A stretch of 64,000 nucleotides of DNA from an uncultured Clostridia bacterium (lineage in GTDB: Bacteria; Bacillota; Clostridia; Christensenellales; UBA1242). Below the pieces are notes generated by a model. The model made no database searches, had not been told where the DNA came from, and saw nothing but the letters and a program-made list of their open reading frames with translations. The stretch lies in assembly GCA_934754335.1 (NCBI GenBank), contig CAKVHY010000003.1, positions 64,419 to 128,418 of the forward strand, in the 5' to 3' direction. Of the stretch, positions 13,243 through 42,994 are shown piece by piece. A program made the translations under genes and the position numbers. Position 1 is the first letter of the stretch, and the number at the start of each line of letters is the position of its first letter.

Positions 13243-13806
13243 TTAATCAAGATAATAATCTTCAACTTGAATAGTAAAATCTATTGGCGATTGCGAGAAA
13301 GAGATTGAAGCATCAATAACGCTCATTCTTATTGTAAATAATTTAGTTGCTTCTCTTCCAATAACTGTATCTTCATTATCAAAATTTGAAGCAAATTCTC
13401 CACCTTCAATACTATAATCAAACGCCACATTGTTTAGATTTTGAGTATTATTTCTAAATTCGAAAGCAATCTTATGATCACAATTATTCTTTAGATAAAT
13501 TTTAATATATATTGGTCTTGGGCTTCCGCTTTCATCAGCACCAAACACCATATCTCCAATATCCCAATTTCTAACCCTATTACCATTTAATTTTGTTGAA
13601 TAATCTTTTTTCTTTACATTGCTTAATTCTTCATCATAATTTTCAACTGTGGCAGTAATGATAGCCCCGCTTGAGCCTTTTGCAAACACTTTAAGCGAAC
13701 TACCCGCACCATTTTGAATAAATAATTTGACTGAAAAAGCCAACATAATTAAAATTACGCAACTTGAAAACAACGAACTAAAAATTTGCCATTTAGATTT
13801 TTTCAT
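13243..13806 (-). CDS. secreted beta-rich protein, divergent member of the TasA/camelysin-like family in this locus
   Basis: It has an N-terminal signal anchor and shares the mid-protein pattern WDIGDMVFG...IYIKIYLKNN with the other five paralogues. Confidence 0.45.
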   Translation of the reverse strand: MKKSKWQIFSSLFSSCVILIMLAFSVKLFIQNGAGSSLKVFAKGSSGAIITATVENYDEELSNVKKKDYSTKLNGNRVRNWDIGDMVFGADESGSPRPIYIKIYLKNNCDHKIAFEFRNNTQNLNNVAFDYSIEGGEFASNFDNEDTVIGREATKLFTIRMSVIDASISFSQSPIDFTIQVEDYYLD

Positions 13807-13945
13807 ACATGCTCCTATAAACTTATCCTATTTATAATATCACATCTTAAATTTATTTACAAGCCCTAAATTTATTTATTGTTTTCCCATTTTCATAAAT
13901 TAAAGTATTTCTAATGCTGGCAAACCAAGTTCACCAGCATTATTT

Positions 13946-16084
13946 TTATCTAAAACCTTTCAAAATTTCGTTTGGTTTCTTTTTAGCAAAGTTTATAAGC
14001 GGAATAATTGCACCTATTGCAGCAATCAAAACGCTAACACCAAACATAAGCAACACTGCTCCAAAGTTACTACTCATTAAGTTGAACTTAATGAATGTTG
14101 AACCACTAACCAAACTATTTGCAATAACCGAAGCAATTTCTGTTATAAACAATGTTACGATAAATGAAAGAATTACAAACATTGAAGTACTTTGTAAGAA
14201 TATACTTGAGATATTCCAGTTACTAAATCCTAACGCCTTCAAAACGCCAACATCGTTCTTTCTATCAACAATTATTTGATTTATGAAATAATACATCATA
14301 ACAATTGCAAAGAATGCTGAGAAGCAACCAAGCAATATTGCAATAGATTTATATATTTCAATACTACTAGCCATCTCGCCAATGGTTTTGCTTGTGATAG
14401 AACTAAAAACATAACCTTTCGCATCAAAATTCTTAACAATATTTTGAAGTTCTGTGTTATTTGAAGCGGAATAATTTTCAATGCTTATAACCACGCCAGT
14501 TGTAATGGCTTTTGCAACTTCAAAATCTTTTGATGCATGAACCGTTAAGTAAACATTGTTCATGTTATATTTATACATATCCGAAGGTAATTGTTTATTG
14601 ATATAAATAAGAGTTGAAGCATTGGCATAAGTTTCATAGTCTGTGTCGTAAACGCCACAAATTCTATAAGAAACTCCACCTAAAGTGATTGAATGACCTA
14701 TTATATTTTGTTCAATATATGTTTCACCCCACCTACTTTCAACGCTTTCTTGCTCAGGCTCAATTGCTCTTTCAGTAACCCATCTATCGCCAACACCTTG
14801 GCTTAGTCCATAAAGTCTTATAAGCCCTAACATATAATCTGAGATAACTACGCCATCAACTGCACTTTCAGGATACATTCCATAAAGGATTTCTTTTCCG
14901 AATTGGTTATTTGTACCTTTTCTATTAGGCAAAGGTCTTTCAGATCTAATTATGCTAGTTACACTCAATTCCTGATGCTCTCTGCTCATAGGTCTTATAT
15001 CTTCGTCAACATTAAAACTAATATTTAAAGTTGCTTTTTGGAACTCATAATAAGGCTTATCACCTAAAACTTTCTCAATTTGAGTTCTATCATTAGAATT
15101 TTCACTGAAATTAATATGGTTGTACTCATCACTCGATTTTTGAAACATTACATAAGGTGCAATTCTTACATTTTTATCTCTAAATAACGAATTAACTTGC
15201 GCATATGCAGTGTTAAAGTTGCCAAGAATTGCAAATATTCCGAAGAATGACACCGCCAAAGTGCAAAGGATAACCATAAATACAGTTCTCCATCTTCTAT
15301 ATAGCAAACTATCAAGGGCTAAACGGAATGAATATTTATAGCCAAGGCCATGCTTTTTAGTTTGAACCTCTTCAGGTTTTGCAACGCTTTTTTCTTCTTC
15401 TTTCTTTTCCTGCTTTCTTCTAACGTCTCCACCAACAGTGTTGTTTTCCAAAGTTATGATTCTATCTGCATACTTTTCAACCATAGCGCTATCATGGGAA
15501 ACTGAAATAACCAAGCAGTTTTTGGAGATTTCCTTAACTAAATCCCAAATAATTGTTTTATTCTTATCATCTAGATGGGCCGTTGGCTCGTCCATGAATA
15601 AGATTTTTGGAGTTTTAATCAAAGTTCTTGCAATACAAACTCTCTGCCTTTGACCAGAAGAGCATTGCGAAACAGGCCTTTCTTCAAACCCACTCAACTT
15701 AACCTTTTTCAAAACTTGAGCAATTTGATCATCAGTGGGAACTATGCCATTTGCCAAAGTTCCAAGCCTAATATTTTCTTTAATACTCATTGTTTCAATT
15801 AAGTTGTAATCTTCGAAAACAAAGCCGATATGTTCACGCCTATAATTATCAAAATCCTTGCTAGAGAAATTTTTAAAACTCTCGCCATCAATGATAACAT
15901 CGCCCGAATCAAATCTTTCAAGCCCAGCAATAATACTTAAAAGAGTACTCTTACCATTTCCGCTTGCACCACATATAAATGTGATGCCGGAATTATCTAA
16001 CTCAAGGTCTATATTTCGTAAGGCTCTAACCTTACTACCATCTCTGTTATAAAATGTTTTTGATACATTTTTAACTCTAACCAT
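13946..16084 (-). CDS. fused ABC ATPase plus FtsX/MacB-type permease
   Basis: It has Walker A GASGNGKST, the signature CSSGQRQRV, Walker B ILFMDEPTAHLD and a C-terminal FtsX-like TM bundle (VGVLKALGFSN). It starts 11 nt after the sipW-like stop. Confidence 0.85.
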   Translation of the reverse strand: MVRVKNVSKTFYNRDGSKVRALRNIDLELDNSGITFICGASGNGKSTLLSIIAGLERFDSGDVIIDGESFKNFSSKDFDNYRREHIGFVFEDYNLIETMSIKENIRLGTLANGIVPTDDQIAQVLKKVKLSGFEERPVSQCSSGQRQRVCIARTLIKTPKILFMDEPTAHLDDKNKTIIWDLVKEISKNCLVISVSHDSAMVEKYADRIITLENNTVGGDVRRKQEKKEEEKSVAKPEEVQTKKHGLGYKYSFRLALDSLLYRRWRTVFMVILCTLAVSFFGIFAILGNFNTAYAQVNSLFRDKNVRIAPYVMFQKSSDEYNHINFSENSNDRTQIEKVLGDKPYYEFQKATLNISFNVDEDIRPMSREHQELSVTSIIRSERPLPNRKGTNNQFGKEILYGMYPESAVDGVVISDYMLGLIRLYGLSQGVGDRWVTERAIEPEQESVESRWGETYIEQNIIGHSITLGGVSYRICGVYDTDYETYANASTLIYINKQLPSDMYKYNMNNVYLTVHASKDFEVAKAITTGVVISIENYSASNNTELQNIVKNFDAKGYVFSSITSKTIGEMASSIEIYKSIAILLGCFSAFFAIVMMYYFINQIIVDRKNDVGVLKALGFSNWNISSIFLQSTSMFVILSFIVTLFITEIASVIANSLVSGSTFIKFNLMSSNFGAVLLMFGVSVLIAAIGAIIPLINFAKKKPNEILKGFR

Positions 16085-16095
16085 TTTCTCCTCCT

Positions 16096-41481: not shown

Positions 41482-41484
41482 CTT

Positions 41485-41847
41485 TTATGTTGTTGATGGT
41501 GTTGTTGTTGAACTCTTACCTGTAATCCAATTTACAAGTGTTTGCATATTGCCTTCTTGAGATAATAGCAACATCAATACTACCATTACAATCATAATAA
41601 CTGTACCTACTACAACGTTAATGATTCTCTTCTTGGCTTCTTCTTTTTTATCTGTACTTTCTGCCTTCATGTAGTTTACAGATAGAACAATAATCCAAAC
41701 TATACCAACTGTTGCCAACACTGAGAATATTGGTGTTAATAACATTTGAACAATTTCAGCCAATTTTTTTGTATACTCAGAAAAAGGCTCGTTCCCTGTC
41801 CCAGGTTCTCCTATAAACGCAAGTATATTAGCCAAATATCTATACAT
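41485..41847 (-). CDS. small two-TM protein, VirB2/TrbC-pilin-like (tandem duplicate)
   Basis: It is nearly identical to 40955-41329 at both DNA and protein level apart from a 12-nt indel (SGSGKPGTGK versus EPGTGN). The SD GGAGGAAG precedes the ATG at 41847. Confidence 0.4.
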   Translation of the reverse strand: MYRYLANILAFIGEPGTGNEPFSEYTKKLAEIVQMLLTPIFSVLATVGIVWIIVLSVNYMKAESTDKKEEAKKRIINVVVGTVIMIVMVVLMLLLSQEGNMQTLVNWITGKSSTTTPSTT

Positions 41848-42004
41848 ATCTTCCTCCGCTTTCCATTTTAATTTACTATATATTAGCACATTTTTTAAAA
41901 ACTACAAAATTAAATAACAATAAAATCTAAAATCTTTAATATTTTTTATAATTTATTTTTAACAAATAATGCTTTATTATTCTAGATTTTTAAAATTATA
42001 ATGG

Positions 42005-42994
42005 CTAATCATTATATTTTTCAAACAACATTTTTGAAAATTTAGATAATTTATTTCTAAGGATTTTTGGCGACAACAATTCCACATTCTCCCCATATTG
42101 AATAACCCAATAGAAAAGTGCATTTTCATTAGTATGCAATTTAACCAAATACTTATCTTCTTTTTGCTTCACTTCTAAATCTAATCCAAACCAATCAAAG
42201 ACTGCACTCAAAGCGTCTATATTATTAACAAGCAATTCAGCATCAACGCTATTTCCGCCAAACATATAAATATGCTCGTTTGCGTACTTAAACTTATCAA
42301 TCCCGTTTTCATAACCAAACAAACTTGTGGCTGGTTTTGCCTTATTATCTAACAACTTCAAATCCGTTATGTAATCAATTCTATAATGACTTAAATTGTA
42401 ATACTTATTATAGTTTCCCACCAAATAATATTTTCCATTATTATTTAACATAAAATATGGATTAACAATATATGAATGTTCTTTCTTAGGCGTTAGTTTT
42501 TTATCAAAACCCAATTGATTATAAGTAAACTCCACCTGAACACCTTTACTAATTGCTTCACTCAACAAATCTATATTATAAAAAACCTGTTTATTAAGGC
42601 TTCTATTTAATTCTTGCATACCATTGGAAGAAAACAAATATTCAAATCTATTTTGCTTGAACTTACTAAAATTTTTGCATAGTTTTCCAACCAACTCGCT
42701 CGCAAAACCGCTAGGCAAAGACTTTGAAGAATAAACGCTATCAATTAAATATTCCACTTCACTATCTTCAAAATCTCTTTCGCCCAAATAAACGCCTTTA
42801 GATGTTTTTTCCACATAAAAGCCTGCACCAATCAATGAATCAATATTCCTTCCAATAGCATTTCTTCCAGCCACAATGCCATATTTATCTTTTAATATAG
42901 AAATAATATCATTAAATTGAAGCCTATGATTTTCATCACTCTCTTCTTTTAGAATTTTATAGATATAAATGCCAAGATTTTTCTTATTTTCCAA
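42005..42994 (-). CDS. HTH plus WYL domain transcriptional regulator
   Basis: The N-terminal winged-helix-like region is followed by the WYL-type beta segment YIVNPYFMLNNNGKYYLVGNYNKYYNLSHYRIDYITDLKLLD. Confidence 0.7.
   Translation of the reverse strand: MENKKNLGIYIYKILKEESDENHRLQFNDIISILKDKYGIVAGRNAIGRNIDSLIGAGFYVEKTSKGVYLGERDFEDSEVEYLIDSVYSSKSLPSGFASELVGKLCKNFSKFKQNRFEYLFSSNGMQELNRSLNKQVFYNIDLLSEAISKGVQVEFTYNQLGFDKKLTPKKEHSYIVNPYFMLNNNGKYYLVGNYNKYYNLSHYRIDYITDLKLLDNKAKPATSLFGYENGIDKFKYANEHIYMFGGNSVDAELLVNNIDALSAVFDWFGLDLEVKQKEDKYLVKLHTNENALFYWVIQYGENVELLSPKILRNKLSKFSKMLFEKYND

What the first reader, a model, noticed from the sequence alone, without database searches (positions are those of the whole stretch)
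13243..42994. Composite surface-fibre/secretion island combining TasA-SipW, T4SS-derived parts, a giant adhesin and a pseudo-Rho
About 30 kb lies between mnmA and an SPT-like gene. It brings together components that I do not know to occur as one system.

- An enlarged SipW signal peptidase is translationally close to a fused MacB-type ABC transporter.
- Six paralogous secreted beta-rich proteins carry SipW-type signal peptides.
- A VirD4-type coupling ATPase is followed 16 nt later by one of those paralogues.
- There is a 970-aa VirB6-like polytopic protein.
- A 3,592-aa membrane-anchored protein is divergently transcribed.
- The island also holds a P-loop-less Rho paralogue, three VirB2-like mini-proteins and a WYL regulator.

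No VirB4, relaxase, integrase, sortase or LPXTG signal is visible. The island therefore looks neither like a conjugative element nor like a classical Gram-positive pilus locus. My working hypothesis is a membrane-anchored fibre or adhesion apparatus whose subunits are matured by SipW, with export or assembly assisted by repurposed T4SS parts.
Basis: partly seen in the sequence, partly recalled or inferred. Interest (0 to 1): 0.85.

Follow-up and report, generated by a model that had tools for sequence, protein, structure and literature searches.

The report
Chromosomal mycoplasma-type secretion apparatus with giant adhesin
An uncultured gut Clostridia bacterium carries a chromosomally fixed, stripped-down DNA/protein-transfer (type IV secretion) machine with its own giant surface protein; this lineage has added a signal-peptidase/ABC-transporter/small-surface-protein module and has no VirB4 motor ATPase at the locus.

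Summary
The interpretation needs splitting in two.

(A) The three pilin-like mini-proteins, the VirD4 coupling ATPase, the 977-aa polytopic protein and the 3,598-aa protein form a conserved module. I found it in about 30 species of uncultured Christensenellales/Clostridia, often at the same chromosomal site. It matches NCBI's Mycoplasma-ICE conjugation families (Mbov_0395/0396; relatives also carry Mbov_0397 VirB4). No relaxase or integrase was seen in the window or among the annotated genes of five relatives' loci. The window has no VirB4; the whole genome could not be scanned.

(B) The enlarged SipW-type peptidase, the fused MacB-type ABC transporter and the small secreted proteins occur only in a narrow clade. 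There they are interleaved with (A), syntenic and under purifying selection. A SipW-plus-substrate pair also occurs elsewhere without any T4SS.

Only three of the "six paralogues" are demonstrably homologous. The model of one is an Ig-like β-sandwich. No TasA match appeared at sequence or fold level.

Best reading: a domesticated, contact-dependent T4SS-like apparatus with a lineage-specific surface-protein add-on. Function is inferred, not shown.

The parts
42005..42994 (-). WYL-domain putative transcription regulator; first gene of the WYL-pilin-Rho-like gene string
   Evidence: Matches PF13280 WYL (E=1.8e-8) and weakly WCX, and the PADLOC WYL model (1.7e-21). It was not found next to the module in any relative, so its membership is inferred from position only.
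41485..41889 (-). VirB2/VirB3-like two-TM mini-protein (pilin-like), copy C
   Evidence: PF18895 T4SS_pilin scores 27.7 bits against a cut-off of 26.6. It has two TM helices joined by a charged loop, KAESTDKKEEAKKR. It is 90% identical to copy B.
40955..41371 (-). VirB2/VirB3-like two-TM mini-protein (pilin-like), copy B
   Evidence: PF18895 scores 28.4 bits. NF045849, the Mbov_0395-family pilin-like conjugal transfer protein, scores 46.1 bits against a cut-off of 40. Orthologues occur in 31 loci.
40451..40855 (-). VirB2/VirB3-like two-TM mini-protein, divergent copy A
   Evidence: PF18895 scores 22.4 bits and NF045849 29.7 bits, both below their cut-offs. It is 35% identical to copy B and has the same topology.
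39004..40128 (-). Rho-like protein without a P-loop
   Evidence: Rho_N matches at E=5e-7. Weak colinear matches cover the Rho N-terminal, OB and C-terminal regions. There is no Walker A motif. No relative was found in JGI metagenomes. Its membership in the system is unproven.
28128..38924 (+). Giant (3,598 aa) surface protein: N-terminal signal-like segment, C-terminal TM anchor plus basic tail; conserved partner of the T4SS genes
   Evidence: TM segments lie at residues 11-40 and 3566-3594, and the protein is rich in N, T, S and Y. It has no Pfam domain. Colinear orthologues (24-32% identity over five segments) sit beside the T4SS genes in 23 loci. dN/dS is 0.12.
27083..27883 (-). 266-aa secreted protein with the 'GIYA' signal peptide
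   Evidence: The signal reads LGIYAMV. No family match was found. Its orthologue in L002 is 82% identical. Homology of the mature domain to the 198-aa family is not demonstrable.
26334..27044 (-). 236-aa Ig-like secreted protein (paralogue 3 of the 198-aa family)
   Evidence: It is 43% identical to the 198-aa protein. A terminator-like hairpin lies just downstream at 26326-26302.
25539..26153 (-). 204-aa Ig-like secreted protein (paralogue 2)
   Evidence: It is 54% identical to the 198-aa protein. The best promoter-like site of the region lies upstream: TTGACT-17-TATAAT at 26278-26250.
25085..25506 (.). Tandem array of a 75-77-nt unit (about 5.6 copies) in the 784-nt spacer upstream of the 198-aa gene
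   Evidence: The units contain promoter-like hexamers. The function is unknown.
24158..24754 (-). 198-aa Ig-like β-sandwich secreted protein (paralogue 1; candidate major subunit)
   Evidence: The AF2 model has pLDDT 82.8 and is a β-sandwich behind an N-terminal helix. The best PDB matches are self-complemented FimA pilins (E=5e-5, TM-score about 0.3), with no TasA match. Weak Ig-like Pfam hints recur across the family. It is the fastest-evolving gene in the island (dN/dS 0.49).
20351..23284 (-). Extended VirB6-like polytopic protein: about 7 TM segments, a 220-aa external loop and a 470-aa helical C-terminal domain
   Evidence: NF045848 (MMCAP2_0566 family) scores 142 bits against a cut-off of 90, and NF045889 (Mbov_0396 ICE TM protein) scores 90 against 70. 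Homologues occur in 43 loci. Foldseek gave nothing significant, although R388 TrwI/VirB6 chains recur among the weak hits.
18165..20210 (-). VirD4-type coupling ATPase (T4CP)
   Evidence: PF02534 matches at 2.8e-52 and NF045973 at 319 bits. It has two N-terminal TM segments and an intact Walker A motif. Identity is 60-70% across species and 95% to L002, with dN/dS 0.02. Plasmid T4CPs are only about 30% identical.
17465..18148 (-). 227-aa secreted protein starting 16 nt after the T4CP stop
   Evidence: Its orthologues keep this position in L002, L045 and L046. No family match was found.
16096..17286 (-). Enlarged SipW/Sec11-type (S26B) signal peptidase
   Evidence: TIGR02228 matches at 1.1e-11 and NF046067 SipW at 6e-9, both on the N-terminal part only and both below their cut-offs. 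S64, H219, D227 and D254 are invariant. A 100-120-aa insert is present that the distant homologue P0123 lacks. The second TM segment and the basic tail are conserved.
13946..16084 (-). Fused ABC ATPase plus FtsX/MacB-type permease, 11 nt downstream of the peptidase gene
   Evidence: ABC_tran matches at 1.3e-32, FtsX at 6.8e-11 and MacB_PCD at 0.005. There are 4 TM segments with a loop of about 280 aa between TM1 and TM2. It is syntenic in L002, L044, L045 and L046.
13243..13806 (-). 187-aa secreted protein, last gene of the string; terminator-like hairpin at 13237-13205
   Evidence: Its orthologue in L002 is 87% identical. No family match was found.

Best explanation
The island has two layers.

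Layer A is a chromosomally fixed, vertically inherited, minimal type IV secretion apparatus of the Mycoplasma-ICE (MPF_FATA) kind. It comprises a VirD4 coupling ATPase, an extended VirB6-like channel protein and one to four VirB2/VirB3-like two-TM mini-proteins. Most relatives also have a VirB4 ATPase with two N-terminal TM helices. A cognate giant protein is always nearby. That protein is Sec-exported and C-terminally membrane-anchored.

Inferred mechanism for layer A:
- The giant protein makes contact with another cell or a surface.
- The small proteins and the VirB6-like protein form the membrane conduit or a short pilus-like stalk.
- The T4CP recruits and energises a macromolecular substrate, either DNA or protein. 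The direction of transfer is unknown.
- No relaxase, integrase or transposase was seen at any examined locus, so the machine would serve the cell rather than a mobile element.

Layer B occurs only in this lineage. VirB4 is not at the locus. The T4CP gene has been inverted to follow the VirB6-like gene. A module has been inserted on both sides: an enlarged SipW-type signal peptidase, a fused MacB-type ABC transporter and six small secreted proteins with one distinctive signal peptide.

Inferred mechanism for layer B:
- The peptidase cleaves these signal peptides.
- The released Ig-like domains coat the surface or polymerise there, possibly by strand complementation.
- The MacB-type transporter possibly aids their extraction or assembly.
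- The module is co-expressed with the T4SS genes and modifies the same contact surface.

Shown: gene identities, synteny and selective constraint. Inferred: everything about function.
For: Family assignments above NCBI's curated cut-offs:
- T4CP: NF045973.
- VirB6-like protein: NF045848 and NF045889.
- Pilin-like protein: NF045849.
- Relatives' VirB4: NF045975, the Mbov_0397 family, at 601 bits against a cut-off of 590.
- The order pilin-like, VirB6-like TM protein, VirB4 seen in relatives matches the consecutive numbering of the Mycoplasma family names Mbov_0395, 0396 and 0397; I did not inspect a Mycoplasma ICE itself.

Conservation of layer A:
- 36 species-level genomes of uncultured Clostridia/Christensenellales carry the VirB6-like gene.
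- Cluster counts across the 43 loci analysed: T4CP in 34, pilin-like in 31, VirB4 in 24, giant protein in 23.
- The same fba neighbour recurs in 10 loci, which indicates a fixed chromosomal site.
- More distant versions occur in other metagenomes.
- The giant proteins are colinear orthologues, and all have an N-terminal signal-like segment.

Evidence against mobility:
- No relaxase, integrase or VirB4 lies in the 64 kb.
- The VirB6-like protein has no plasmid homologue.
- Plasmid T4CPs are only about 30% identical, against 60-70% within this group.

Evidence against decay: dN/dS between the window genome and a relative is 0.02 for the T4CP, 0.12 for the giant protein, 0.24 for the VirB6-like protein, and 0.11-0.49 for nine of the ten other genes compared (par227 gave no estimate because dS was saturated).

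Layer B is a separate, younger module:
- The small-protein family has only 47 members, all in loci of this arrangement or dispersed elsewhere.
- The peptidase has only 6 detectable homologues.
- A distant peptidase lies next to a 190-aa protein with the same IGVFAAT-type signal and no T4SS nearby.

Layer B is tightly integrated here:
- Intergenic gaps are 16 nt and 11 nt.
- A single terminator-like site follows the last gene, and the arrangement is conserved to 43% VirB6-like identity.

Precedents from the literature:
- Relaxase-less chromosomal MPF_FATA T4SSs with VirB2 arrays exist in Patescibacteria (PMC12102498, PMC12857230).
- A surface lipoprotein is needed for Mycoplasma ICE mating (PMC6030558).
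Against: - No functional data of any kind exist. All relatives are MAGs.
- VirB4, the signature T4SS ATPase, is missing from this locus and from the whole 64 kb. I could not scan the rest of the genome. The machine may therefore be incomplete or may work differently.
- VirB6 homology rests on NCBIfam family names and on topology. The fold search was not significant and Pfam TrbL/VirB6 did not match.
- The mini-proteins could be VirB3-like rather than pilins. PMC12857230 describes Mycoplasma CDS13 and CDS15 as VirB3-like.
- The link between layers A and B is positional only.
- The fold of the small proteins resembles pilins only weakly (TM-score about 0.3).
- The Rho-like and WYL genes are unexplained.
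Confidence: 0.55

Rival explanations
1. First reader's model. The island is one integrated fibre or adhesion organelle. The small proteins are TasA-like subunits matured by SipW. Their export or assembly is driven by repurposed T4SS parts (T4CP, VirB6-like protein, pilin-like proteins) that no longer need VirB4.
For: - The genes are interleaved and tightly spaced: T4CP to the 227-aa gene is 16 nt, and the peptidase to the ABC gene is 11 nt.
- The arrangement is conserved and constrained within the clade.
- VirB4 is absent from the locus exactly where the SipW module is present.
- The best fold matches of the 198-aa protein are donor-strand-complemented pilins.
- Some family members are fused to BspA-type LRR adhesin domains, as a tip adhesin would be.
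- There is a precedent for a second machine assisting secretion from a SipW-containing (bsa) operon in Clostridium perfringens: secretion of BsaC depends on the type IV pilin PilA3, and efficient BsaA oligomer secretion on some type IV pilus genes (PMC11580942).
Against: - The substrates have Sec-type signal peptides, so they do not need a T4SS to cross the membrane.
- Sister lineages without SipW (L012, L013, L004) also lack an adjacent VirB4. VirB4 loss or relocation is therefore not tied to gaining SipW.
- The T4SS-plus-giant module works, or at least persists, without SipW in about 30 species.
- A SipW-substrate pair exists without a T4SS.
- No TasA homology was detected.
Confidence: 0.2
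2. Chance juxtaposition. A decaying remnant of an integrated conjugative element lies next to an unrelated biofilm-matrix (SipW) operon and an unrelated adhesin gene.
For: - VirB4, relaxase and integrase are absent.
- The SipW module and the T4SS module have different phylogenetic distributions.
Against: - The T4CP is under very strong purifying selection (dN/dS 0.02, 95% amino-acid identity at dS of about 1.6) and its Walker A motif is intact.
- The giant protein, pilin-like genes, T4CP and VirB6-like gene are syntenic across dozens of species at a conserved chromosomal site.
- There are no pseudogenes in the island.
Confidence: 0.1
3. The locus is an active Mycoplasma-ICE-like mobile element, or a dedicated chromosomal-DNA conjugation or uptake system comparable to mycoplasma chromosomal transfer or the archaeal Ced system. 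Its DNA-processing proteins are too divergent to recognise.
For: - The core proteins fall in Mycoplasma-ICE families.
- Mycoplasma ICEs move with a DDE transposase, and my term search of PMC6030558 found a relaxase mentioned only in that paper's transfer model, so a missing relaxase is a weak argument.
- Relatives carry large cytoplasmic proteins of 951-1,937 aa with no recognisable domains directly after VirB4. These could be DNA-processing enzymes or substrates.
- The archaeal Ced DNA-import system is likewise built from T4SS homologues (PMC9905601).
Against: - For mobility: the chromosomal neighbourhood is conserved (fba in 10 loci). The flanks are housekeeping genes. The window has no DDE transposase or integrase. 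The T4CP is far more conserved than expected for a horizontally moving element.
- For DNA transfer in this lineage: VirB4 and the large cytoplasmic proteins are absent from the window.
Confidence: 0.15

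Closest known systems
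Mycoplasma integrative conjugative element (MICE/ICEA) mating channel: CDS5 (VirD4), CDS15/CDS13 small TM proteins, CDS16 (VirB6-like), CDS17 (VirB4), plus the CDS14 surface lipoprotein
   Same: - The window's pilin-like and VirB6-like proteins, and the relatives' VirB4, score above the curated cut-offs of the NCBIfam models built on these Mycoplasma proteins (Mbov_0395, 0396, 0397).
- The gene order in relatives follows the numbering of those family names (Mbov_0395-0396-0397).
- No VirB1- or VirB8-like component was seen here; the review describes Mycoplasma ICEs as lacking both (PMC12857230).
- A dedicated surface protein accompanies the channel (PMC6030558).
   Different: - The locus is not mobile: there is no DDE transposase and the chromosomal site is conserved.
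- The hosts are Clostridia, not Mollicutes.
- The surface partner is a 2,500-3,600-aa TM-anchored protein rather than a lipoprotein.
- The small TM genes occur in arrays of one to four.
- This lineage lacks VirB4 at the locus and has the SipW/ABC module.
Chromosomal, relaxase-less MPF_FATA-derived T4SS of Patescibacteria (Saccharibacteria) with VirB2-like pilin arrays
   Same: It is chromosomal and monoderm. It has no relaxase, carries tandem divergent PF18895-type pilin genes and appears co-opted for a non-conjugative role (PMC12102498, PMC12857230).
   Different: - The phylum is different (Bacillota).
- The T4CP is adjacent and highly conserved here. In Patescibacteria it is usually distant and was non-essential in the one strain tested.
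- No giant adhesin partner is reported there.
- The phylogenetic position of VirB4 was not tested here.
SipW-dependent TasA/BsaA matrix-fibre operons (Bacillus subtilis tapA-sipW-tasA; Clostridium perfringens sipW-bsaA-bsaB-bsaC)
   Same: - A Sec11/SipW-type peptidase gene is embedded among genes for small secreted β-rich proteins that share one unusual signal peptide.
- Donor-strand-type assembly is plausible.
- A link to a second envelope machine has a precedent (PMC9674648, PMC11580942).
   Different: - The peptidase is twice the usual size, with a 100-120-aa insert plus an extra TM segment and a basic tail. It scores below the SipW model cut-offs.
- The substrates show no TasA/Peptidase_M73 similarity by sequence or fold.
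- A MacB-type ABC transporter is coupled to the peptidase gene.
- The partner machine is T4SS-derived, not a type IV pilus.
Archaeal Ced/Ted DNA-import systems
   Same: They are chromosomal, non-mobile machines built from T4SS homologues and used by the cell itself (PMC9905601).
   Different: Ced is driven by a VirB4/HerA-like ATPase (NCBIfam NF041017 CedB). The window's T4CP matches that model only marginally (E=0.0026) and is a VirD4-type T4CP instead. No direct sequence relationship was tested beyond that weak CedB match.

Membership tests
Type IV secretion system (MPF_FATA, Mycoplasma-ICE subtype) | VirB4-family ATPase, the signature T4SS component | tested here: not met
   tblastn of a relative's VirB4 against the 64-kb window gave no hit better than E=3.5. 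Pfam and NCBIfam scans of every annotated ORF of at least 90-100 aa found none. It is present next to the VirB6-like gene in 24 related loci (NF045975, 601 bits). The rest of this genome could not be searched.
Type IV secretion system (MPF_FATA, Mycoplasma-ICE subtype) | VirD4-type coupling protein with an intact NTPase motif | tested here: met
   PF02534 matches at 2.8e-52. NF045973 scores 319 bits against a cut-off of 250. The Walker A motif is GTTGSGKT and there are two N-terminal TM segments.
Type IV secretion system (MPF_FATA, Mycoplasma-ICE subtype) | VirB6-like polytopic channel protein | tested here: inconclusive
   NF045848 and NF045889 score above their cut-offs. The protein has about 7 TM segments plus hydrophilic domains, like extended VirB6 proteins. 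However, there is no Pfam TrbL/VirB6 hit, and the Foldseek matches to R388 TrwI/VirB6 are not significant (E=2-6).
Type IV secretion system (MPF_FATA, Mycoplasma-ICE subtype) | Small two-TM VirB2/VirB3-like protein(s) | tested here: met
   PF18895 scores above its cut-off for two of the three copies. NF045849 scores 46 against 40. Whether they are VirB2-like (pilus-forming) or VirB3-like cannot be decided from sequence.
Conjugative element (ICE or plasmid) | Relaxase, plus an integrase or DDE transposase, plus element boundaries | tested here: not met
   No such domain lies in the 64 kb. The flanks are mnmA, pheST, addAB and recX. The fba neighbour is conserved across species. The VirB6-like protein is absent from 72,556 plasmids.
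SipW/TasA-type matrix-fibre system | SipW/Sec11-type (S26B) signal peptidase with a Ser-His-Asp catalytic set | tested here: inconclusive
   TIGR02228 matches at 1e-11 and NF046067 at 6e-9, both below their cut-offs and covering the N-terminal half only. SGSM, FH and D residues are invariant in six homologues. Pfam and PDB sequence searches gave no hit. Activity is untested.
SipW/TasA-type matrix-fibre system | Substrates of the TasA/camelysin (Peptidase_M73) fold | tested here: not met
   There was no Pfam hit even at E up to 10 across 36 family members, only weak Ig-like hints. The PDB profile search was negative. Foldseek of a pLDDT-83 model returned FimA-type pilins at TM-score about 0.3 and no TasA or archaeal bundling-pilus entry in the top 50.
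SipW/TasA-type matrix-fibre system | Shared cognate signal peptide on the neighbouring secreted proteins | tested here: met
   All six proteins carry a K-rich n-region, a 20-25-aa h-region and a G-I/L-Y/W/F-A-like end. The same type appears on the protein next to a distant peptidase homologue in L048. The NCBIfam TIGR04088 model did not report a hit.
Transcription termination factor Rho | Rho_N domain, OB RNA-binding domain and RecA-type ATPase with Walker A/B motifs | tested here: not met
   Rho_N is present (5e-7). The OB and C-terminal regions match only weakly. There is no Walker A motif. Scores are far below the Rho model cut-offs (43 bits against 315).
MacB-type (type VII) ABC transporter | Fused N-terminal ABC ATPase, four-TM FtsX permease and a large extracytoplasmic domain between TM1 and TM2 | tested here: met
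   ABC_tran matches at 1.3e-32, FtsX at 6.8e-11 and MacB_PCD at 0.005. TM segments lie at 265-291, 575-606, 625-660 and 669-701. The match to the MacB equivalog covers the ATPase part only.
Sortase-dependent Gram-positive pilus | Sortase gene and LPXTG sorting signals | tested here: not met
   There is no sortase domain. No true LPXTG sorting signal lies near any C-terminus; the only loose regex hit (IPSAD in par236) is not followed by a hydrophobic anchor. The giant protein ends in a TM helix plus RRKTRFK.

The most novel reading that the evidence does not exclude
This lineage runs a T4SS derivative that truly lacks VirB4, the one ATPase regarded as universal to type IV secretion. It couples the remaining T4CP/VirB6-like/pilin-like core to a SipW-type peptidase and a MacB-type transporter. 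Together these build a new kind of Gram-positive surface organelle: Ig-like subunits plus a giant contact protein. More broadly, uncultured gut Christensenellales would carry a domesticated, pilin-encoding T4SS used for cell-cell interaction. Outside mobile elements, such a system has so far been described only for Patescibacteria among monoderms.
Probability: 0.13. Interest if true: 0.9.

Novelty: new variant of a known kind. Interest (0 to 1): 0.66.

Why it matters
A recent review (PMC12857230) makes two statements that bear on this locus. First, VirB2-type pilins are not found in Gram-positive T4SSs except in Patescibacteria. Second, nearly all Gram-positive T4SS functions are limited to DNA transfer by mobile elements.

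This locus, with about 30 related ones, shows a chromosomally fixed, relaxase-less, strongly constrained T4SS-like gene set in ordinary gut Bacillota. It carries pilin-like gene arrays and a conserved 2,500-3,600-aa surface protein. That points to a widespread, unstudied cell-contact machine in an abundant but uncultured branch of the gut microbiota.

It also suggests a clostridial relative of the Mycoplasma ICE mating channel, whose origin is unclear. The window's own lineage adds a natural experiment. VirB4 is missing from the locus, and a SipW/ABC/Ig-like module sits in its place. This makes two questions testable: which T4SS parts can function without VirB4, and what an enlarged SipW-type peptidase does.

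Tried and rejected
- The exact-sequence look-up of the window T4CP failed because the recorded gene start differs.
It was repeated with 8 sequences.
- The single exhaustive HMMER job was wasted. The alignment A4 included three LRR_5 fusion proteins, so the profile pulled in about 186,000 leucine-rich-repeat proteins. The only usable insight is that the small-protein domain occurs fused to BspA-type LRRs.
- PDB sequence searches with the peptidase and with the small-protein profile gave only noise.
- Foldseek of the VirB6-like model gave nothing significant.
- A metagenome scan with the Rho-like protein found no relative. Its association with the system therefore stays untested. My loci never reach beyond the giant gene in relatives.
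- PADLOC gave only generic ATPase and WYL matches, so a defence-system reading was dropped.
- The idea that the six small proteins form one paralogous family was rejected for three of them. The TasA label was also rejected as unsupported.
- An active-ICE reading was rejected on context and conservation.

Full report
**What is in the window**

On the minus strand, read 5'->3' from 27883 down to 13243, the genes are:
- four small secreted proteins of 266, 236, 204 and 198 aa;
- a 977-aa polytopic protein;
- a 681-aa VirD4-type coupling ATPase;
- a 227-aa secreted protein that starts 16 nt after the ATPase stop;
- a 396-aa SipW-like peptidase;
- a 712-aa fused ABC-FtsX transporter that starts 11 nt after the peptidase stop;
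- a 187-aa secreted protein, followed by a terminator-like hairpin at 13237-13205.

A 3,598-aa gene runs divergently on the plus strand (28128-38924). Its product has hydrophobic segments only at residues 11-40 and 3566-3594 and ends in RRKTRFK.

Beyond it, again on the minus strand, lie a WYL regulator, three two-TM mini-proteins and a Rho_N-containing protein with no Walker A motif.

The flanks are housekeeping genes: a TM2-domain gene overlapping mnmA, a class I/II aminotransferase, tRNA-Gln, pheST, addAB and recX. Nothing in the 64 kb is a VirB4, relaxase, integrase or sortase, and no protein has an LPXTG signal. G+C content is about 30% throughout, with no compositional break at the island edges.

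**The T4SS parts are of the Mycoplasma-ICE type**

NCBIfam places four proteins above their curated cut-offs:
- The coupling protein falls in the CD1115 VirD4 family (319 bits against 250).
- The 977-aa protein falls in the MMCAP2_0566 / Mbov_0396 'ICE element transmembrane / conjugal transfer' families (142 against 90, and 90 against 70).
- The mini-protein at 40955-41371 falls in the Mbov_0395 'pilin-like conjugal transfer protein' family (46 against 40).
- In relatives, the gene after the 977-aa homologue is a VirB4 that matches the Mbov_0397 'VirB4_plasma' model over its full length (601 against 590). It has two N-terminal TM helices.

The order pilin-like, TM protein, VirB4 in relatives matches the consecutive numbering of those Mycoplasma family names. 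A recent review describes Mycoplasma ICE CDS16 as the likely VirB6 equivalent and CDS13/CDS15 as VirB3-like (PMC12857230). The 'VirB6-like' and 'VirB2-like' labels are therefore reasonable but not secure:
- Pfam's VirB6/TrbL model does not match.
- An AF2 model (pLDDT 74) gave no significant PDB match, although R388 TrwI/VirB6 chains recur among the weak hits.
- The topology fits an 'extended VirB6': about 7 TM segments, a 220-aa external loop and a 470-aa helical tail.

**A conserved chromosomal module**

A homologue search with the 977-aa protein returned 70 unnamed proteins from MAGs. A scan of one genome per species found it in 36 uncultured Clostridia/Christensenellales genomes from human, ruminant, mouse and other guts.

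I called ORFs in all fetched loci and compared them with the window proteins. The recurrent arrangement is:
- giant protein (divergent);
- one to four pilin-like genes;
- T4CP (divergent);
- VirB6-like gene;
- VirB4;
- a large protein of 950-1,940 aa with no TM segment or signal peptide;
- a protein of about 79 aa.

Counts across the 43 loci analysed are: VirB6-like 43, T4CP 34, pilin-like 31 (57 genes), VirB4 24, giant 23.

In 10 loci the next gene is the same fructose-bisphosphate aldolase. In others the neighbours are rpsR-ssb-rpsF or plsX-rnc-smc. The site is therefore chromosomal and, in part, fixed.

The giant proteins are colinear orthologues over five segments at 24-32% identity. All begin with a signal-like segment.

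The T4CP is 60-70% identical across species whose VirB6-like proteins are about 30% identical. The best plasmid T4CPs are about 30% identical. The VirB6-like protein has no plasmid homologue at all.

A scan of JGI metagenomes with a pilin alignment found more distant versions of the same core, with T4CP identity of 37-47%.

Taken together, this is a vertically inherited cellular system, not a mobile element.

The closest published concept is the relaxase-less chromosomal MPF_FATA T4SS with VirB2 arrays of Patescibacteria (PMC12102498). The review PMC12857230 calls that system the one exception to the absence of VirB2 from Gram-positive T4SSs. Literature searches found no description of this system in Christensenellales.

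**The SipW/ABC/small-protein set is a younger layer**

None of the distant loci contains it.

A profile search with the six small proteins returned only 47 proteins. The members whose context I fetched lie mostly in loci with the window's arrangement: L044, L045, L046 and L047. One, an LRR_5 fusion (P0091, L050), is encoded elsewhere in a genome.

The arrangement holds in a relative whose proteins are much diverged: VirB6-like 43%, peptidase 56%, ABC 60% and T4CP 87% identical.

The peptidase has just six detectable homologues. The most distant one (P0123, 24% identity in the search table) lacks the 100-120-aa insert. It sits next to a 190-aa protein with the same kind of signal peptide (…IGVFAAT…) in a locus without T4SS genes. 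That protein is the only one with a profile-level hint of homology to the 198-aa family (52% probability).

Peptidase-substrate pairs of this type therefore exist independently. In this lineage one was built into the T4SS locus.

In the same clade, VirB4, the large cytoplasmic protein and the 79-aa gene are gone from the locus, and the T4CP gene has been inverted to follow the VirB6-like gene. The nearest sister loci without SipW (L012, L013; T4CP 70% identical) and L004 also lack an adjacent VirB4. Its absence is therefore not specific to the SipW-bearing clade.

**State of the genes**

I compared the window genome with L002, where dS is about 1-1.6 (near saturation, so values are approximate).

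| Gene | dN/dS |
|---|---|
| T4CP | 0.02 |
| TM2-domain gene (flank) | 0.05 |
| Small proteins (266, 236 and 187 aa) | 0.11-0.13 |
| Giant protein | 0.12 |
| ABC transporter | 0.14 |
| Peptidase | 0.15 |
| 204-aa protein | 0.23 |
| VirB6-like protein | 0.24 |
| 198-aa protein | 0.49 |

The 227-aa gene gave no estimate because dS was saturated.

The T4CP keeps its Walker A motif. The peptidase keeps invariant S64 (in SGSM), H219 (FH), D227 and D254. Its second TM segment and basic cytoplasmic tail are strikingly conserved. Nothing looks like a remnant.

**What the small proteins are**

The 198-, 204- and 236-aa proteins are true paralogues at 43-54% identity. The 266-, 227- and 187-aa proteins share with them the signal peptide and a C-terminal motif: D/S-V/I-S…F followed by an alternating-hydrophobic strand, seen directly in the sequences. 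With signal peptides removed, however, profile-profile comparison gives probabilities below 5%. The alignments used there were shallow.

An AF2 model of the 198-aa protein (36-sequence alignment, pLDDT 82.8) is a β-sandwich behind an N-terminal helix. Its best PDB matches are self-complemented FimA pilins (E=5e-5 to 9e-4), but TM-scores are only about 0.3. No TasA, camelysin or archaeal bundling-pilus entry is in the top 50. Pfam gives only weak Ig-like hints (FixG_C, fn3_5, Filamin, Big_10) and no Peptidase_M73 match.

'TasA-like' is therefore unsupported. 'Small Ig-like secreted proteins, possibly polymerising' is as far as the evidence goes. Some family members carry C-terminal BspA-type LRR domains, which fits a surface-display role.

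**Transcription signals (consensus scans only)**

- The best promoter-like site of the region (11 of 12 matches) lies upstream of the 204-aa gene.
- A terminator-like hairpin follows the 236-aa gene, and another follows the 187-aa gene.
- The 784-nt spacer before the 198-aa gene holds about 5.6 tandem copies of a 75-77-nt unit.
- The overall counts of promoter-like and terminator-like sites do not exceed those in shuffled sequence. These are leads, not evidence.

**Mechanism (inferred)**

For layer A:
- The giant protein is exported by Sec and held by its C-terminal helix. It makes the contact with a partner cell or surface, as CDS14 does for Mycoplasma ICE mating (PMC6030558).
- The mini-proteins and the VirB6-like protein form the membrane conduit.
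- The T4CP selects and drives a substrate.
- Whether DNA or protein moves, and in which direction, is unknown.

For layer B:
- The peptidase removes the shared signal peptide from six small proteins.
- The MacB-type transporter may use its extracytoplasmic domain to extract or assemble them. This is speculation by analogy with MacB/LolCDE mechanotransmission.
- The products decorate the same surface.

It is not excluded but has no direct support. The subunits have Sec-type signals, and the two layers have separate histories. A partial precedent for a second machine assisting secretion from a SipW-containing operon exists in Clostridium perfringens, where the machine is a type IV pilus system (PMC11580942).

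**Unresolved**

- Whether VirB4 is encoded elsewhere in this genome.
- Whether the Rho-like and WYL genes belong to the system. No relative of the Rho-like protein was found. My loci never extend past the giant gene in other species.
- The fold and domains of the giant protein.
- The identity of the large cytoplasmic proteins that follow VirB4 in relatives.

**Verdict**

The most interesting element is not the composite. It is the conserved, chromosomal, Mycoplasma-ICE-type T4SS-like module with pilin-like arrays and a giant partner protein in gut Christensenellales. The window shows a VirB4-less, SipW-augmented variant of that module. I rate it a new variant of a known kind, with interest 0.66.

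Noticed in passing
window 25085-25506 (also one unit at 26213-26250): About 5.6 tandem copies of a 75-77-nt unit fill the 784-nt spacer upstream of the 198-aa gene. Each unit contains a promoter-like TGGGCA…TATATT pair. The homologous spacers in relatives are shorter (319 nt in L002, 535 nt in L044), so the copy number may vary.
   Followed up: partly
window 23852-24002: An AT-rich 36-nt tandem repeat (4.2 copies) lies in the 873-nt spacer between the 198-aa gene and the VirB6-like gene.
   Followed up: no
window 40955-41371 and 41485-41889: Two of the three pilin-like genes are 90% identical at protein level, indicating a recent tandem duplication. The third is only 35% identical.
   Followed up: partly
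L003:15774-18629, L005:15719-19822, L021:18144-23957, L031:15950-21190 and similar: In relatives, VirB4 is followed by a large protein of 951-1,937 aa with no TM segment or signal peptide; the three examples scanned (951, 1,367 and 1,746 aa) have no Pfam or NCBIfam match. A conserved protein of about 79 aa comes next. Both are absent from the window. They are candidate substrates or DNA-processing proteins of the ancestral system.
   Followed up: partly
L013:13256-21455: The closest SipW-less relative has a second giant gene (at least 2,733 aa, with one TM segment near residue 60) directly after the VirB6-like gene, where other relatives have VirB4.
   Followed up: no
L060:10793 onward, L061:3255 onward, L021:9998-14761: The VirB6-like gene is enlarged to about 2,040 aa in two metagenome loci and is duplicated in tandem (833 and 742 aa) in L021.
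   Followed up: no
L050:9856-11205 (P0091); also P0110, P0171, P0173, P0260: In these proteins the signal peptide and Ig-like domain of the 198-aa family are fused to BspA-type LRR_5 repeats. P0091 is encoded next to obg, away from any T4SS gene.
   Followed up: partly
window 62789-64000 (-): A BspA-type LRR_5 protein runs off the end of the window. Its N-terminus is not visible, so it cannot be told whether it carries the same signal and Ig-like domain.
   Followed up: no
window 16096-17286 (-), residues about 283-396: The peptidase has a second TM helix followed by a very conserved basic cytoplasmic tail (…DEYMQDKNRRKRALENPMLKN…RFKIWFNKFLYF…). This suggests a cytoplasmic binding partner.
   Followed up: partly
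window 725-1465 (+): A TraX-family protein is encoded 12 kb from the island in an otherwise housekeeping context. TraX is the family of the F-pilin acetylase. Any relation to the T4SS-like module is unknown.
   Followed up: no
window 61266-62707 (+); L004:21859-22658: Two tandem Zn_peptidase_2 genes lie in the window. The same tandem pair lies about 9 kb from the T4SS module in the distant relative L004.
   Followed up: no
L022:6038-9631, L028:409-3957, L037:6176-9793: In three genomes the VirB6-like gene lies beside plsX-rnc-smc with no T4CP or VirB4 nearby. It is preceded by a protein of about 1,200 aa with a signal peptide and a C-terminal TM anchor (weak PKD/Big_13 Ig-like matches in the one scanned, L022).
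   Followed up: partly
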